64,000 bases of DNA from Phyllobates terribilis (lineage: Eukaryota). Made by a program: the position numbers. The stretch covers positions 257,548,001 to 257,612,000 of the forward strand of contig NW_027362767.1 in assembly GCF_046119375.1 (NCBI RefSeq), read 5' to 3'. Positions 13,837-28,800 of this stretch are shown here, one piece after another. The number at the start of each line of letters is the position of its first letter. The stretch's first letter is position 1.

Positions 13837-16800
13837 TCAGCAGTGGGGTCCTCCTGGGTCTCCTGCCATAGCATTTCATTTCATTCAAATGTGGATGGAA
13901 AATTCGGGCTGACACTGATGCCCCCTGAACTTGCAGGACAGCTTGAATTTCTTTGGAACGTGATTGGGGCTGCTTATCCATAATCTGGACTATCCTGTGT
14001 TGTAACCTTTCATCACATTTTCTCTGCCGTACACCTCCAGGGAGATTAGCTACAGTGCCATGGTTTGTAAACTTCTTGATTATGTTGCGTACCGTGGACA
14101 AAGGAACATCAAGATCTCTGGAGATGGACTTGTAACCTTGAGATTGTTGATATTGTTCAACAATTTTGGTTCTCAAGTCCTCAGACAGTTCTCTTCTCCT
14201 CTTGCTGTCCTCCATGCTTAGTGTGGCACACATAGACATACAATGCAAAGATTGAGTCAACTTCTCCCCTTTTTATCTGGTTTCAGGTATGATCTTCATA
14301 TTGCTCACACTTGTTACTTGCCGCAGGTGAGTTTGAACGGGCATCACAAGCTTGAAACAAAGTTGTTTACCCACAATATTAGAAAGGTGGCAACAATTTT
14401 GTCCGGCCCATTTTTGGGATTTTGTGTGAAATGATGTCCAATTTGCCTTTTTTTCTTGCGTTGTTCCAATACACATAAACATGTATAATAAAACGTGTGT
14501 GATTGTAATAATTTTCTGGGAGATATACGTCGTTTTCTGGAACAATTTCAAGAGTGCCAACACTTTCGGCCATGACTGTATATAGTGGCAAAGGCAGGTC
14601 TGGGTCTTGTAACTGTATAGAGGCTGCAGGTTCTAGGTCATGCAACTATATAGCAGAGACAGGTTCTAGGTCATGTAACTATATAGAAGAGACAGAGTCT
14701 GGGTCATGTAACTGTATAGAGGCTGCAGATTCTAGGTCATGTAACTATATAGAGGAGGGAACAGTTTCTGGATCATGTAACTGTATAGAGGCTGAAGGTT
14801 CTAGGTCATGTAACTGTATAGAGGAGGGAACAGTTTCTGGATCATGTAACTGTATAGAGGCTGAAGGTTCTAGGTCATGTAACTGTATAGAGGAGGGAAC
14901 AGTTTCTGGATCACGTAACTATAGAGGCTGAAGGTTCTAGGTCATGTAGCTGTATAGAGGAGGAGGCAGGTTCTGGATCATGTAACTGTATAGAGGAGGA
15001 GCCAGGTTCTGAATCATGTAACTGTATAGAGGCTGAAGGTTCTAGGTCATGTAACTGTATAGATGAAGAGTCGGGTTCTGAATCATGTAACTGTATAGAG
15101 GCTGAAGGTTCTAGATCATGTAACTGTATAGAGGAGGAGGAGGCAGGTTCTGGATCATGTAACTATAGAGTCTACAGGTTCTAGGTCATGTAACTATAGA
15201 GGAGGGGGCAGGTTCTGGATCATGTAACTATGGAGGCTGAAGGTCCTAGATCATGTAACTGTATAGAGGAGGAGGCAGGTTCTGGATCATGTAACTGTAT
15301 AGAGGCTGAAGGTTCTAGATCATGTAATTGTATGGAGGAGGGAACAGTTTCTGGATCACGTAACTGTATAGAGGCTGAAGGTTCTAGGTCATGTAACTGT
15401 ATAGAGGCTGAAGGTTCTAGATCATGTAACTGTATAGAGGAGGAGGCAGGTTCTGGATCATGTAACTATAGAGTCTACAGGTTCTAGGTCATGTAACTAT
15501 AGAGGAGGGGGCAGGTTGTGGATCATGTAACTATGGAGGCTGAAGGTTCTAGATCATGTATCTGTATAGAGGAGGAGGAGGCAGGTTCTGGATCGTAACT
15601 ATAGAGTCTACAGGTTCTAGGTCATGTAACTATAGAGGAGGAGGCAGGTTCTGGATCATGTAACTGTATAGAGGCTGAAGGTTCTAGATCATGTAACTGT
15701 ATAGAGAAGGAGGCAGGTTCTGGATCATGTAACTGTATAGAGGCTGAAGGTTCTAGATCATGTAACTATAGAGGAGGAGGCAGGTTCTGGATCATGTAAC
15801 TGTATAGAGGCTGGCTGAAGGTTCTAGGTCATGTAACTGTATAGAGGAGGAGGCAGGTTCTGGATCATGTAACTGTATAGAGTCTACAGGTTCTAGCTCA
15901 TGTAACTGTATAGAGGAGGAAGGTGGTTCTGGATCAGTAATGTATATGAAGGAGACGTATTCTGCGTTTAGATACCTGATATAAAATCCTTTCTGTATTT
16001 TCCTGCCCCTGTAGGTTCTCCCATGGATCCCCCTGGACACATCCATTTATACGAAACAGCTTTTGTCCAGAACGGTCGGGCAGTCACCGTTTTATGGGCG
16101 TCCTGCACCCTGTTTCTTGGGATCCTGGAGATTGTTGTCCTCCTGCAGCCCACCTGGGTATTAGGTGGGGAGGGCAGCGGACATTTTGGACTGTACCAGG
16201 TGTGCGCGGAGTCAGATTGGGGTACAGAATGTCGGGGTCCTGATGGCGTCCTGGAACCTCTCCCACCGTTCCAGACAGCGGCCGGCTTCATGCTGGGGGC
16301 TCTGCTGCTGGTCCTGCTCAGCCTGGCCTCCATCGTCCTGCTGTGGTTCTGTCACTCGGGCAGCGTCTACAAACTCTGCGCCTGGCTGCAACTGACCGCT
16401 GGTAATGGACGGGTGGGGGGGTCTCCATCTCAGGACGATTTCCATTAGTTTGATTTTATATTTAGCTTGCGGAGGATTGTCTATGCTGGACACAAGTGTC
16501 GCACACCCTCAGCCGGCGCATACACCCTGCATATCTTCATTCACTGACAGCAAGCAGAGGTTTTATAAATGGCAGAAGTGTTACCTCCTCATTGATTTAG
16601 TCTCTGTGTCTCTCCTTAGCTTTCTGCCAGGGGCTGGCCTGCATCCTCTTCCCTGACGGCTGGGACTCGCCCGCTGTGCGCCCCTTTTGTAACTACCGCT
16701 CAGACAGATACCAGTTGGGCACGTGCTCGGTGCACTGGGGCTTTATTCTGGCCATACTAGGAACCTTCGACTGTCTGGTCCTGTCTATTTTGGGGTTCAC

Positions 16801-25800: not shown

Positions 25801-28800
25801 TATAGTAGTTATATTCTTGTACATAGGAACAGTATTATAGTAGTTATATTCTTGTACATAGGAGCAGTATTATAGTAGTTATATTCTTGTACATATAGAG
25901 GGCAGTATTATAGTAGTTATATTCTTGTACATAGGGGCAGTATTATAGTAGTTATATTCTTGTACATAGGGACAATATTATAGTAGTTATATTCTTGTAC
26001 ATGGGGGCAGTATTATAGTAGCTATATTCTTGTACATAGGAGCAGTATTATAGTAGTTATATTCTTGTACATTGGAGCAGTACTACAGTAGTTATGTTCT
26101 TGTACATAGGGGGCAGTATTATAGTAGTTATATTCTTGTACATAGGGGGCAGTATTATAGTATCGTGTTGTACATAAGGGCAGTATTATAGTATGTGGTC
26201 TGGTCTTTCTTTGAGAGCTGGTATGAGTCATATTATTGTCCTTGTAATTCATTTCCATTCCTCTGCTGTCCTTGCACTTTCTGAGGCTGGCTGCATTACG
26301 CACAGCACGGAATAGATAATAATTAGATCTTGGTGACTCAGCAGAGAAGGAACTTCTGGATCGAGGGCCATTAAAATATAATGTCACCAGCTTATATCCA
26401 CTAGTCCTTGACTCGTCCTCGTCTATCTCTTTATATTCAGCAGTCTCTAGACTTAGACTCGGGGACCACTTTCCGGCCTCCGCAGGTGCAGTCACAAGCT
26501 TTCCTGGAATCCTGAACGGCTCGTTCACTTACCTATACACTGATGCATGTAATGAGATGTCTTCACCACTTAGAAGCCCCGGATATCTGTATCCTTCTTA
26601 TTGGTAACCTCCATTTCTCTTTTTTCCAGGGTTCATTTCAGACACCCCCTGATGACTGACATGACCGTGTGGATGAGCCACCGCTTTTGGATTTTCAGTG
26701 TTTGTCGATATCTGTGCCGATAATGTAAAAATGTTTTTTATTTTGTAATATTAAATTATTTCTTCCGTGTCGTCAGTGCACAGTGTGAATTATATCCACT
26801 GGAGTTCTGTTTTCCTCTGCTCTGTCCCACAAAGAGGCGGGGCTGCTGCAGATTTCAATAAAATGGTAGTTCCTGTATAGAAAGAGGGCGGAGCTTAAAG
26901 GGGTTTTCCACTTCAAGAAAAGTGGATCCCAAACACTTTTGTGTACGTAAAATAATAAGAAAAGCAAGTTATCACCCTTCCCTGGTCAAATGCCGGCTTT
27001 CCACCGCTGCTCCGGTCTCAGTGTTTTGGTTGCAGCAGTCACATCATGTGGACAGTGCACTTCACCTCTGCAGCTAATCACTTAGCTCGGCAGCCCATAC
27101 TATCTGCATAGGGCTCAGTGATTGGCTGCAGCGGTGATGTGACCTGTCGCCATGATGTCACTGCTCTAGCCAAAACACTGAGACCAGATGAAAAAGGGTG
27201 GGACAGAAGGTGATGTCGGTGCCACCGCAGTGCAGGAGTCAGGACGTTCATTGCCTGTGACTGCGCCGGTTTTGGGGCTTATATTTGTTTAGGGGTTCAG
27301 GCGTGGAATTTGTATTAGTTTAGGTGGTCTGTTTTGGGGTCTGTCTACTCGGCAACAGTTATAAATTTGCTAGTACAATCCAGAGACCCGAGCTGAAAAA
27401 GGAGTTGTGGCTTATAAAAAAACCCCTCTATCCTGGGAAAGAGAAAAAGAGGGTGAAATACTGCGAAGCAGGTACATAAACTATTGACTAAGTCAGTTCC
27501 CTAACCTCGCCCCATTCTTTATATGCACCCACACAGATATATTGCTCCTGATGAGGCTCATTAGTGTTCTCATACAGTATGACACTGATTTTATGGCCAC
27601 AACAGTGCCCCCACACACAGTATAATGCCCACACAGTCCCTCAATACAGTACAATCCCCCCACACCGTATGATTGCCCCCACACACATAGTAGGATGCCC
27701 ACACAGCCCCTCAACACAGTATGATTCCCACCCACACAGTGTGATGCCACCACAGACCCCCTCACGCAGTATGATGCACCCCCAATGCAGTATGATACCC
27801 GCAATACAGTATGATGCCCGCAATACAGTATGATGCCCCCCATTACAGTATGGTGCTCCAACACAGTATGATGCCCCCACAGTATTGCCCCCCAGACCAA
27901 TATAATGATTGCCCCTACAACCACTGACAAACTATGATGGCCCTACCAGGGGAGAACACTGACAGCAGAGGGCCCTTGTGCAATCTCTCCCTACAACGAC
28001 AGATTATAACCCCTGGCAAAAATTATGGAATCACCGGGCTTGGAGGATGTTCATTCAGATGTTTAATGTTGTTGAAAAAAAGCAGATCACAGACATGGCA
28101 CAAAACTAAAGTCATTTCAAATGGCAACTTTAGGGCTTTAAGAAACACTAAAAGAAATCAAGATAAAAAATGTGGTACTCAGTAGGGGTAATCTTTTTCA
28201 GACCAAGCAGAGGGAAAAAATTATGGAATCACTCAATTCTGAGGAAAAATTATGGAATCACCCTGTAAATTTTCATTTCCAAAACTAACACTTGCATCAA
28301 ATTAGATCTGCTCGTTAGTCTGCATCTAAAAAGGAGTGATCACACCTTGGAGAGCTGTTGCACCAAGTGGACTGACATGAATCATGGCTCCAACACCAGA
28401 GATGTCAATTGAAACAAAGGAGAGGATTATCAAACTCTTAAAAGAAGGTAAATCATCACGCAATGTTGCAAAAGATGTTGGTTGTTCACAGTCAGCTGTG
28501 TCTAAAATCTGGACCAAATACAAACATGGGAAGGTTGTTGAAGGCAAACATACTGGTAGACCAAGGAAGACATCAAAGCGTCAAGACCGGAAACTTAAAG
28601 CAATATGTCTCCAAAACAGGAAATGCACAACAAAACAAATGAGGAATGAATGGGAGGAAACTGGAGTCAATGTCTGTGACCGAACTGTAAGAAACCGCCT
28701 AAAGGAAATGGGATTTACATACAGAAAAGCTAAACAAAAGCCATCATTAACACCTAAACAGAAAAAAACAAGGTTACAATGGGCTAATGAAAAGCAATTG

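What the first reader, a model, noticed from the sequence alone, without database searches (positions are those of the whole stretch)
16023..26652. Divergent LHFPL3/4/5-type tetraspan next to PCSK1N: possibly a fourth ohnolog with no human counterpart
Seen: an intact 212-aa spliced ORF with all LHFPL hallmark motifs, but much more divergent than LHFPL3/4/5 are from each other (FVQNGRAV vs YVRNSRAI, QPTW vs QPYW, a short first loop, a unique KKGFISDTP tail). Established: LHFPL5 is a hair-cell mechanotransduction subunit and LHFPL3/4 (GARLH) are GABA-A receptor/neuroligin-2 auxiliary proteins. In human these genes lie on 7q22, 3p25 and 6p21, while PCSK1N is on Xp11.23 with no LHFPL3/4/5 beside it. 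Inference: this is a separate paralog from the vertebrate genome duplications, retained in amphibians and functionally uncharacterised, and a candidate ion-channel auxiliary subunit. It is the best candidate for new biology in the window.
Basis: partly seen in the sequence, partly recalled or inferred. Interest (0 to 1): 0.68.

Follow-up and report, generated by a model that had tools for sequence, protein, structure and literature searches.

The report
Fourth LHFPL tetraspan paralog in frog
An intact frog gene next to PCSK1N encodes a fast-evolving fourth relative of the LHFPL3/4/5 channel-helper membrane proteins; sharks, fishes, amphibians, lizards and snakes have it, no mammal or bird copy turned up, and databases already predict it under misleading names.

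Summary
Window 16023-26652 (+) carries three coding exons with canonical splice sites. Exons 1 and 2, searched separately, match adjoining parts of Pfam PF10242 (E 8e-19 and 3e-19). They are colinear with a 212-aa RefSeq protein of Ranitomeya imitator (98% and 96% identical). PCSK1N lies about 15 kb downstream on the other strand.

The gene is not LHFPL3, 4 or 5. It belongs to a separate clade, called X here (192-197 of 200 bootstraps without a window row). In the same sample, X joined with LHFPL3, 4 or 5 got 0 of 200.

X is not an amphibian peculiarity. It holds named proteins from sharks and rays, bichir, paddlefish, gar, bowfin, teleosts, coelacanth, lungfish, caecilian, salamander, 13 frog genera, and squamates. 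No mammal, bird, turtle or crocodilian protein was X-type.

Gene models already exist, named 'LHFPL3-like', 'lhfpl4b' or 'LHFPL5-like'. My searches found no paper on the clade.

Origin by whole-genome duplication, expression and binding partner are untested. The likely role is a claudin-fold auxiliary subunit of a membrane receptor or channel complex. Its partner probably differs from those of LHFPL4/5, because the first loop and TM2 have diverged most.

The joined protein was neither built nor searched.

The parts
16023..16401 (+). Coding exon 1 of the LHFPL-type gene. It runs from the ATG to the donor, with 126 whole codons plus the first base of a split codon. It encodes the N-terminus, TM1, the first extracellular loop with its two cysteines, TM2 and most of TM3.
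   Evidence: Sequence and translation; Pfam PF10242 positions 2-116, E 8.2e-19; LHFPL4/5 chains in PDB; 97.6% identical to P0001 residues 1-126.
16402..16619 (+). Intron 1 (218 nt, phase 1), GT...AG.
   Evidence: Read. Its position coincides with the junction in P0001 and in the Pfam profile.
16620..16856 (+). Coding exon 2. It has 78 whole codons flanked by split codons and encodes the end of TM3, the second extracellular loop with two cysteines, TM4 and the start of the C-tail.
   Evidence: Pfam PF10242 positions 120-181, E 2.7e-19; LHFPL5 6c14_B at 1e-19; 96.2% identical to P0001 residues 128-205.
16857..26629 (+). Intron 2 (9.8 kb). It is filled with tandem repeats at 17922-20023 (26-nt unit) and 21218-26193 (35/71-nt unit), plus a Tc1/mariner DDE fragment at 23892-24221 (-).
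   Evidence: Tandem Repeats Finder; Pfam DDE_3 at 5e-11; donor and acceptor read.
26630..26652 (+). Coding exon 3. It holds the last two bases of a split Gly codon, six codons and TGA.
   Evidence: The tail equals the last residues of P0001. It is too short for any search tool (minimum 20 aa), so it was compared by eye only.
41822..43434 (-). Neighbouring gene PCSK1N (proSAAS). It has two coding ORF blocks, is convergent with the LHFPL-type gene, and lies about 15 kb from that gene's stop codon.
   Evidence: Pfam PF07259: 42775-43434 matches positions 19-182 at 6.7e-32; 41822-42199 matches positions 182-269 at 9e-18.

Best explanation
The region is an intact, three-coding-exon gene for a 212-residue, four-pass membrane protein of the LHFPL family (Pfam PF10242). 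It is the frog orthologue of a fourth paralog of LHFPL3, LHFPL4 and LHFPL5 that was already present in the common ancestor of jawed vertebrates. I call this clade X; databases call it 'LHFPL3-like', 'lhfpl4b' or 'LHFPL5-like'. X is kept in cartilaginous fishes, ray-finned fishes, coelacanth, lungfish, amphibians and squamates. It was not seen in mammals, birds, turtles or crocodilians. Those steps are shown by the calls cited. The working mechanism is inferred by analogy. Like LHFPL4/GARLH4 with the GABA-A receptor and the neuroligin-2 transmembrane helix, and like LHFPL5 with PCDH15, the protein would act as a small claudin-fold auxiliary subunit. Its transmembrane helices would pack against the membrane part of a multi-subunit receptor or channel and a single-pass adhesion protein, helping to place or stabilise that complex. 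X differs most from LHFPL3/4/5 in the first extracellular loop, TM2 and the N-terminus, and its loop length varies freely. Its partner is therefore more likely a different one than the GABA-A receptor/neuroligin-2 or PCDH15/TMC1. I put about 0.9 on the identity part and about 0.35 on the mechanism part.
For: Gene model: see the observation check. Orthologues: exon 1 alone found 13 proteins among 62 candidates, namely 11 named anurans, 1 unnamed and 1 caecilian; 7 of the 13 are exactly 212 aa. A profile of five X proteins found 163 proteins at E<=1e-10, of which 120 were listed. By clade-profile scoring, 97 of those 120 are X-type (smallest margin 30 bits), and 90 of the 97 carry names: 13 anurans, 1 caecilian, 1 salamander, 1 lungfish, 2 coelacanth, 3 squamates, 6 sharks/rays, 5 non-teleost ray-finned fishes and 58 teleosts (tally made by reading the names; assignment). 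Clade support: X is a bipartition in 197/200 and in 192-195/200 under four other distance corrections. Tree-defined LHFPL3 got 188-197/200, LHFPL4 193-200/200 and LHFPL5 111-179/200. Constraint: the window's exons keep 20 of 20 columns that are invariant in 91 vertebrate LHFPL3/4/5/X proteins, including the two loop-1 cysteines, and they show the X state at 5 of 6 X-diagnostic columns. Anuran X proteins are 67-87% identical to each other. Fold: the AlphaFold2 model of the stand-in P0001 shows four long helices and a hairpin in loop 1. Its best Foldseek PDB matches are GARLH4/LHFPL4 chains in GABA-A receptor-neuroligin-2 complexes (E about 1e-8) and LHFPL5 in the PCDH15 complex (8e-6), followed by TARPs and claudins. 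Roles of the relatives come from passages read in PMC6092121 (LHFPL5 TM1 packs against the PCDH15 TM helix), PMC13454095 and PMC13212339 (GARLH4 links gamma2-containing GABA-A receptors to neuroligin-2).
Against: There is no expression evidence of any kind, so the splice model rests on colinearity with predicted proteins of other species, which are themselves computational. The trees are neighbour-joining only, because no ML program was available, and X is a long branch. The order of the four clades is unresolved. X falls outside LHFPL3+4+5+cyclostomes in 82-176 of 200 replicates, depending on the correction. That could be long-branch attraction or an older origin. Absence from mammals, birds, turtles and crocodilians is absence from search lists that were capped (8000 candidates scored, 120 rows shown), not from genomes. 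The structure model is of low confidence (mean pLDDT 61.4, pTM 0.52; loops below 50), and TM-scores to LHFPL4/5 are only 0.34-0.42. It was made for a relative, not for the window's own protein. Nothing here tests any binding partner. The faster and looser evolution of X could also mean a relaxed, less specific role.
Confidence: 0.75

Rival explanations
1. The gene is a frog- or amphibian-specific, fast-evolving duplicate of LHFPL3, as its RefSeq name 'LHFPL3-like' suggests.
For: The source names say 'LHFPL tetraspan subfamily member 3 protein-like'. Frog X sits on a long branch and has a uniquely short first loop (7 residues, against 10-30 in other X proteins and 10 in LHFPL3/4/5).
Against: X+LHFPL3 got 0/200 bootstraps. 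Profiles built without frogs put both exons in X. Frog X groups with shark, fish, coelacanth, lungfish and squamate X at 192-197/200. Ranitomeya imitator also has a canonical LHFPL3, P0302, which scores 467 bits on the LHFPL3 profile against 181 bits for P0001.
Confidence: 0.03
2. The clade is the teleost-duplication partner of LHFPL4, as the UniProt name 'lhfpl4b' implies, and the frog gene is an LHFPL4 co-orthologue.
For: UniProt names many fish X proteins 'LHFPL tetraspan subfamily member 4b'. The best PDB sequence match of exon 1 is LHFPL4.
Against: Proteins named '4b' also come from bichir and coelacanth, and X members come from sharks/rays, gar, bowfin, paddlefish and tetrapods. All of these lineages are outside the teleost duplication. 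X+LHFPL4 got 0/200. The PDB preference for LHFPL4 over LHFPL5 is marginal (2.3e-19 against 8.1e-18) and reverses for exon 2.
Confidence: 0.03
3. X is real and ancient but is not an ohnolog. It arose by a small-scale duplication, or before the vertebrate genome duplications, and its partner copies were lost.
For: NJ trees place X outside a group of LHFPL3+4+5 plus all cyclostome sequences in 82-176 of 200 replicates (119/200). They do not place X as sister of one of the three. No cyclostome sequence was X-type.
Against: X is the fastest-evolving clade, so a basal position is what long-branch attraction to the outgroup would produce. Support falls as the distance correction gets stronger (176, 142, 130 and 82 of 200). 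Four clades, three of which include cartilaginous fishes in my sample (X, LHFPL4, LHFPL5), is the pattern two rounds of duplication predict. From memory only, and untested here: human PCSK1N lies near FOXP3 and TFE3, whose three paralogs each lie on the chromosomes that carry LHFPL3, 4 and 5.
Confidence: 0.25
4. In this frog the gene is a decaying or silent copy, with an open frame kept by chance.
For: There is no transcript evidence. Intron 2 is swollen to 9.8 kb by tandem repeats and a transposon fragment. The clade evolves fast.
Against: The reading frame is uninterrupted in all three exons and all four splice sites are canonical. All 20 of 20 family-invariant columns are kept. The protein is 96-98% identical to that of a related species, and 7 of 13 relatives found with exon 1 have the same length. 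Anuran X proteins are 67-87% identical to each other across the 13 genera sampled.
Confidence: 0.05

Closest known systems
Predicted proteins of the same clade: RefSeq 'LHFPL tetraspan subfamily member 3 protein-like' (e.g. P0001 Ranitomeya imitator, P0011 Xenopus laevis, P0164 Ambystoma, P0168 Protopterus), UniProt 'LHFPL tetraspan subfamily member 4b' (fishes, coelacanth), and 'LHFPL5-like' (squamates, e.g. P0190)
   Same: This is the same gene. The window's exons are colinear with P0001 and 96-98% identical to it. The clade is supported at 192-197/200.
   Different: Only the names differ. They assign one orthology group to three different paralogs. No function or expression is attached to these entries in what the tools showed, and my searches found no paper.
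LHFPL4 / GARLH4 (GABA-A receptor auxiliary protein; PDB 9faj, 9fav and others)
   Same: Same Pfam family. It is the best sequence and fold match in PDB. It shares the four-helix claudin-like layout, the two loop-1 cysteines and well-kept TM3/TM4 (49-67% identity between X and LHFPL3/4/5 in those segments).
   Different: Overall identity is only about 40% for frog X and 48% for other X, whereas LHFPL3, 4 and 5 are 69-77% identical to each other. Loop 1 and TM2 are 29-34% identical. It is a separate clade (X+L4 0/200). Binding to gamma2 or neuroligin-2 was not tested.
LHFPL5 / TMHS (hair-cell mechanotransduction subunit; PDB 6c14)
   Same: Same family and fold. It is the best PDB match of exon 2 (1e-19).
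   Different: It is a separate clade (X+L5 0/200). TM1 is the helix LHFPL5 uses for PCDH15 contact and dimerisation (passages of PMC6092121). Frog X is only 37% identical to LHFPL3/4/5 in TM1, against 80% among those three, and two of the six X-diagnostic columns lie there.
LHFPL3
   Same: Same subfamily. The RefSeq name points to it.
   Different: Frogs have a canonical LHFPL3 as well (P0302, P0316, P0318). X+L3 got 0/200.
TARPs (stargazin family) and claudins
   Same: They share the four-helix claudin-type fold at the level of weak Foldseek matches (E about 1e-2). TARPs are the textbook case of such proteins acting as channel auxiliary subunits.
   Different: Sequence identity is 12-23% and they belong to other Pfam families. 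They are not members of the same family.

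Membership tests
LHFPL family (Pfam PF10242, L_HMGIC_fpl) | Match to the family profile above the curated cut-off (25.2 bits) | tested here: met
   Exon 1 scores 69 bits (positions 2-116) and exon 2 scores 70.6 bits (positions 120-181), each on its own.
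LHFPL family (Pfam PF10242, L_HMGIC_fpl) | Four transmembrane helices with a beta-hairpin-bearing first extracellular loop (claudin-like layout) | tested here: inconclusive
   The AlphaFold2 model of the stand-in P0001 has helices at 5-44, 82-106, 112-135 and 162-195 and strands at 59-71. Mean pLDDT is only 61.4, and TM-scores to LHFPL4/5 are 0.34-0.42. The window's own joined protein was not folded.
LHFPL family (Pfam PF10242, L_HMGIC_fpl) | Conserved cysteine pair in loop 1 (Cys68-Cys79 disulfide of LHFPL5; passages of PMC6092121) | tested here: met
   Two loop-1 cysteines are invariant in the 75-sequence alignment (C61 and C70 in P0001 numbering). They are among the 12 of 12 invariant exon-1 columns kept in the window.
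LHFPL3/4/5 subfamily | Closest solved and named relatives are LHFPL3, 4 or 5 rather than other LHFPL members | tested here: met
   The PDB sequence hits that pass threshold are LHFPL4 and LHFPL5 only. All named relatives carry LHFPL3/4/5-type names. LHFPL1, 2, 6 and 7 were not sampled by name.
LHFPL3 orthology group | Groups with LHFPL3 of other vertebrates and is the only LHFPL3-type gene of its species | tested here: not met
   X+L3 got 0/200. Exon 1 scores 77.9 bits on the LHFPL3 profile against 147.3 on X. Ranitomeya imitator has a separate LHFPL3, P0302.
LHFPL4 orthology group (including the idea of a teleost 'b' copy) | Groups with LHFPL4; a 'b' copy would be confined to teleosts | tested here: not met
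   X+L4 got 0/200. X members come from sharks, bichir, gar, coelacanth and tetrapods.
LHFPL5 orthology group | Groups with LHFPL5 | tested here: not met
   X+L5 got 0/200. Ranitomeya variabilis LHFPL5 (P0238) and Pseudonaja LHFPL5 (P0246) are separate proteins from the X members.
Ohnolog of LHFPL3/4/5 (product of the vertebrate genome duplications) | The duplication predates the split of cartilaginous and bony vertebrates | tested here: met
   The X clade holds 6 sharks/rays plus ray-finned and lobe-finned members.
Ohnolog of LHFPL3/4/5 (product of the vertebrate genome duplications) | The locus lies in a chromosome block paralogous to the blocks holding LHFPL3, 4 and 5 | not testable with these tools
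   Only the window is available. It shows PCSK1N as the sole other gene. No vertebrate genome collection could be searched.
Ohnolog of LHFPL3/4/5 (product of the vertebrate genome duplications) | Tree shape compatible with two rounds of duplication | tested here: inconclusive
   There are four well-supported clades, but their order is unresolved. L3+L4 got 106-137/200. X falls outside all the others in 82-176/200.
GARLH-type GABA-A receptor auxiliary subunit | Binds the gamma2 subunit and neuroligin-2 in the membrane | not testable with these tools
   There are no interaction data. Only fold-level likeness to GARLH4 chains was seen.
Hair-cell mechanotransduction subunit (TMHS type) | Binds PCDH15 and TMC1 and is expressed in hair cells | not testable with these tools
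   There are no expression or interaction data. TM1, the PCDH15-contacting helix of LHFPL5 (PMC6092121, passages), has diverged in X.

The most novel reading that the evidence does not exclude
X is a fourth, ancient member of the GARLH/TMHS group of channel auxiliary subunits, with its own partner complex rather than the GABA-A receptor/neuroligin-2 or the hair-cell transduction machinery. It serves a function that jawed vertebrates had from the start, and it was lost in the mammalian lineage and again among reptiles (no bird, turtle or crocodilian copy turned up). The present nomenclature hides this by filing the gene under three different paralog names.
Probability: 0.3. Interest if true: 0.6.

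Novelty: new member of a known kind. Interest (0 to 1): 0.42.

Why it matters
LHFPL4 and LHFPL5 are essential small subunits of inhibitory synapses and of the hair-cell transduction apparatus. The family is studied almost wholly in mammals, which seem to lack this fourth paralog. Recognising X as one orthology group does two things.

- It corrects a naming error that runs through RefSeq and UniProt, where the group appears as 'LHFPL3-like', '4b' and 'LHFPL5-like'.
- It points to a candidate auxiliary subunit whose expression can be looked up directly in Xenopus and in teleost fish, which carry the gene.

The gain is modest. The gene family, the fold and the general mode of action are known, the gene models already exist, and nothing here shows a new function.

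Tried and rejected
I did not repeat it. Names came instead from the two profile searches.

2. I tried to resolve the order of the four clades with five distance corrections. The order stayed unresolved. No ML or Bayesian program was on the script machine.

3. A structure model of the stand-in P0001 came back at low confidence. The fold search confirms the family but gives poor superposition. I therefore did not map interfaces residue by residue.

4. I looked for a paper with the GARLH4-GABA-A receptor-neuroligin-2 structure, to compare contact residues. Only reviews that mention it turned up, so no interface comparison was made.

5. I searched the literature for the clade itself.
- 'lhfpl4b': 0 papers.
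- 'LHFPL3-like', 'LHFPL4-like', 'LHFPL5-like', 'lhfpl3l', 'lhfpl4l': 0 papers.
- LHFPL + phylogenetic + paralog: 11 papers, none on LHFPL evolution by title or abstract start.
- LHFPL + genome duplication + gene family: 6 papers held the terms and 4 were listed; none of those 4 is relevant by title or abstract start.
- PMC6974483 treats lhfpl5a/b only; 'lhfpl3' and 'lhfpl4' occur 0 times in it.

6. I scanned 124 longer ORFs of the window for further neighbour genes. Only PCSK1N, transposon and retroelement domains were found, so the window gives no wider gene order.

7. I considered and rejected three readings: pseudogene, LHFPL3 duplicate and teleost-type LHFPL4b (see Rival explanations).

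Full report
WHAT IS THERE. Window 16023-26652 (+) holds three coding exons.
- Exon 1: 16023-16401.
- Exon 2: 16620-16856.
- Exon 3: 26630-26652.
All splice sites are GT/AG and the last exon ends in TGA. The lengths sum to 639 nt, which is 212 codons plus stop. The window has no N. Nothing in it was taken for human; its relatives are frog proteins.

HOW THE SPLICE MODEL WAS TESTED. The joined protein was not built, searched or folded, so every statement about the whole protein rests on the separate exons and on database relatives.
- Exon 1 matches Pfam PF10242 positions 2-116 (E 8.2e-19) and exon 2 matches positions 120-181 (E 2.7e-19). The two matches abut in the profile.
- In the PDB, both exons hit only LHFPL4 and LHFPL5 chains at significant E-values.
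- Exon 1 aligns to residues 1-126 of P0001, a 212-aa RefSeq protein of Ranitomeya imitator, at 97.6%. Exon 2 aligns to residues 128-205 at 96.2%.
- The two split codons read Ala and Gly, as at P0001 residues 127 and 206. The six codons of exon 3 equal P0001's last six residues.
- Exon 3 is too short for any search tool and was compared by eye.
The model therefore agrees with an independent prediction in a close relative. That prediction is itself computational, and no transcript evidence could be consulted.

RELATIVES AND DISTRIBUTION.
- Exon 1 against the 5.8-billion-protein set gave 13 hits among 62 candidates: 11 named anurans, one unnamed protein and one caecilian, at 56-98% identity. Seven of the 13 are exactly 212 aa.
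- Exon 1 against 1.84 billion cluster representatives gave 215 hits at E<=1e-3. There was a top tier at about 50% identity and a second tier at 32-44%.
- A profile of five members (A1) found 163 proteins at E<=1e-10, of which 120 were listed.
- A profile of LHFPL3/4/5 (A2) found 936 at E<=1e-30, of which 120 were listed.
- I scored all 358 fetched proteins against four clade profiles built without frogs. X-type were 97 of the 120 rows, 24 of the 150 rows and 0 of the 92 new rows. The smallest margin was 30 bits.
- Reading the names, the 90 named X rows are 13 anurans, 1 caecilian, 1 salamander, 1 lungfish, 2 coelacanth, 3 squamates, 6 sharks/rays, 5 non-teleost ray-finned fishes and 58 teleosts. 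Seven X rows are unnamed.
- All 7 bird- or mammal-named rows are LHFPL3/4/5-type, as are all mammal, bird and turtle rows.
- The names given to X members are 'LHFPL3-like', 'LHFPL3', 'LHFPL tetraspan subfamily member 4b', 'LHFPL4-like', 'LHFPL5' and 'LHFPL5-like'.

PHYLOGENY. I aligned 102 proteins with MAFFT L-INS-i: 39 X, 47 named LHFPL3/4/5, 5 cyclostome and 11 unnamed distant outgroups. Primate rows were left out. The two window exons were added as separate rows. Neighbour-joining with 200 bootstraps gave the following.
- X as a bipartition: 197/200 on 204 columns with no window row; 186/200 on the exon-1 columns with the window's exon 1; 141/200 on the 78 exon-2 columns with exon 2.
- Anuran X including the window: 200, 200 and 191 of 200.
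- X+L3, X+L4 and X+L5: 0/200 each.
LHFPL3 and LHFPL4 as named got 0/200. The reason is that the shark, skate and chimaera proteins named 'LHFPL3' and one eel 'LHFPL3' sit in the LHFPL4 clade. With clades defined by the tree and four other distance corrections, support was X 192-195, L3 188-197, L4 193-200 and L5 111-179 of 200.

The order of the clades is not resolved. L3+L4 got 106-137/200. X falls outside everything else, cyclostomes included, in 82-176/200, and this support falls as the correction gets stronger.

An independent check with profiles built without any frog puts both exons in X. Exon 1 scores 147.3 bits on X against 77.9, 80.7 and 81.6 on L3, L4 and L5. Exon 2 scores 101.5 against 84.0, 82.8 and 87.1. 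Frog LHFPL3, 4 and 5 controls each score best on their own clade.

PATTERN OF DIVERGENCE.
- LHFPL3, 4 and 5 are 69-77% identical to one another.
- Non-anuran X is about 48% identical to them, and anuran X 40-41%.
- Anuran X is 51% identical to other X, and 67-87% within anurans.
- The window keeps 20 of 20 columns that are invariant in 91 vertebrate proteins. It shows the X state at 5 of 6 columns that separate X from LHFPL3/4/5.
- The stretch of loop 1 before the first conserved glycine is fixed at 10 residues in all 47 LHFPL3/4/5 proteins. It ranges from 10 to 30 in non-anuran X and is 7 in 12 of the 13 anuran X proteins (the pattern was not found in one).
- By segment, X differs most from LHFPL3/4/5 in loop 1 (29-34% identity), TM2 (30-33%) and the N-terminus. 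It differs least in TM3 and TM4 (49-67%).

NEIGHBOURHOOD. PCSK1N lies on the minus strand at 41822-43434, in two ProSAAS-matching ORF blocks. It is convergent with the LHFPL-type gene and about 15 kb from that gene's stop. Intron 2 and the intergenic space are filled with tandem repeats and Tc1/mariner fragments. No other cellular gene was found among the 124 longer ORFs scanned, so wider gene order cannot be read from this window. The human chromosome positions in the finding, and my own recollection that PCSK1N lies near FOXP3 and TFE3, come from memory and were not checked. The same holds for my recollection that their paralogs lie on the chromosomes carrying LHFPL3, 4 and 5.

STRUCTURE. 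An AlphaFold2 model of the stand-in P0001, made with a 75-row alignment, has four long helices and a loop-1 hairpin. Confidence is low (mean pLDDT 61.4, pTM 0.52, loops below 50). Foldseek against the PDB returns GARLH4/LHFPL4 chains from GABA-A receptor-neuroligin-2 complexes first (E about 1e-8), then LHFPL5 with PCDH15 (8e-6), then TARPs and claudins (about 1e-2). TM-scores are only 0.34-0.42. This confirms the family. It does not support residue-level inference.

HOW IT MOST LIKELY WORKS. Shown: this is an intact LHFPL-family tetraspan gene of a distinct, ancient clade. Inferred: it acts as an auxiliary membrane subunit.
- LHFPL5 packs TM1 against the PCDH15 transmembrane helix (PMC6092121, passages read).
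- GARLH4 links gamma2-containing GABA-A receptors to neuroligin-2 (PMC13454095 and PMC13212339, passages read; PMC5640807, listing and abstract start only).
X keeps the scaffold: the cysteines, TM3/TM4 and the family-invariant columns. It has changed loop 1, TM2 and TM1 positions, and its loop length is free. I therefore expect the same kind of job with a different partner, at roughly 0.35 probability.

LITERATURE. No paper on this clade was found. The searches are listed under Tried and rejected. Supplements are closed and could hold expression tables that name the gene.

LIMITS.
- The trees are NJ only.
- Search lists were capped: 8000 candidates scored and 120 rows shown.
- Names are those the sources give.
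- Exon 2 could be searched only against Pfam, the PDB and the 358 proteins already fetched, because the large-database caps had been used on exon 1 and the two profiles.

VERDICT. The gene is a real fourth paralog that mammals appear to lack. It is widespread, it is already predicted in many genomes under wrong names, and neither its origin by genome duplication nor its function was tested here.

Noticed in passing
window 6302-9457 (-): This is a retroelement, the virus-like stretch the operators mention. One ORF has an uninterrupted reverse-transcriptase domain (Pfam RVT_1, 6.8e-28). Its nearest solved relatives are Ty3 and a caulimovirus-type enzyme (about 1e-16 to 1e-14), with retroviral enzymes weaker at about 1e-9. 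Upstream lies an ORF with a LAP2alpha-like domain (1.8e-6). From memory, that domain occurs in gag proteins of DIRS-type elements. No RNase H, integrase or recombinase domain was found in the 24 short ORFs or in the longer ORFs of this stretch, so the element looks truncated. The coding part upstream of the reverse transcriptase is spread over four overlapping ORF pieces in more than one frame and holds one internal perfect inverted duplication of 368 nt. Breaks were not counted against an intact relative, because no protein search was left. Described only.
   Followed up: partly
window 1061-6086: This is a large palindromic arrangement next to the retroelement, with inverted arms up to 1055 nt at 98% and nested direct 200-nt repeats at both ends. 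It could be terminal structures of the element, a true inverted duplication or an assembly artefact.
   Followed up: no
window 13405-14272 (-), 23892-24221 (-), 28381-29127 (+), 32058-32939 (+), 34572-35572 (-), 39135-40289 (+), 43887-44952 (-): These are seven Tc1/mariner-type transposase fragments (Sleeping-Beauty-type HTH, Tc3 HTH and DDE_3 domains). One lies inside intron 2 of the LHFPL-type gene and one lies just beyond PCSK1N.
   Followed up: partly
window 49312-64000: A 33-nt satellite with about 453 copies at 93% match runs to the end of the window. It produces the constant GC content and strong GC skew seen there. Several other tandem arrays lie at 12104-12599, 14594-15946, 31094-31666, 33292-34350, 36001-36790, 37336-38120, 46444-47137 and 47684-48182.
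   Followed up: no
related proteins P0281, P0282, P0299, P0313, P0280 (no window coordinates): Skate, shark and chimaera proteins named 'LHFPL3', and one eel 'LHFPL3', fall inside the LHFPL4 clade (193-200 of 200). No cartilaginous-fish protein fell in the LHFPL3 clade of my sample. Either LHFPL3 is missing or unsampled there, or the names are wrong.
   Followed up: partly
result list (no window coordinates): The exhaustive search of cluster representatives returned nothing above 57% identity to exon 1, although frog orthologues at 69-98% exist in the other protein set. Presumably the frog proteins are filed under a more distant representative at the 50% clustering level. This was not checked.
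   Followed up: no
cyclostome proteins P0239, P0241, P0250, P0252, P0254 (no window coordinates): None of the five hagfish and lamprey proteins is X-type by profile. One hagfish protein (P0241) joins X in 23-52 of 200 NJ replicates. Whether cyclostomes ever had an X gene is open.
   Followed up: partly
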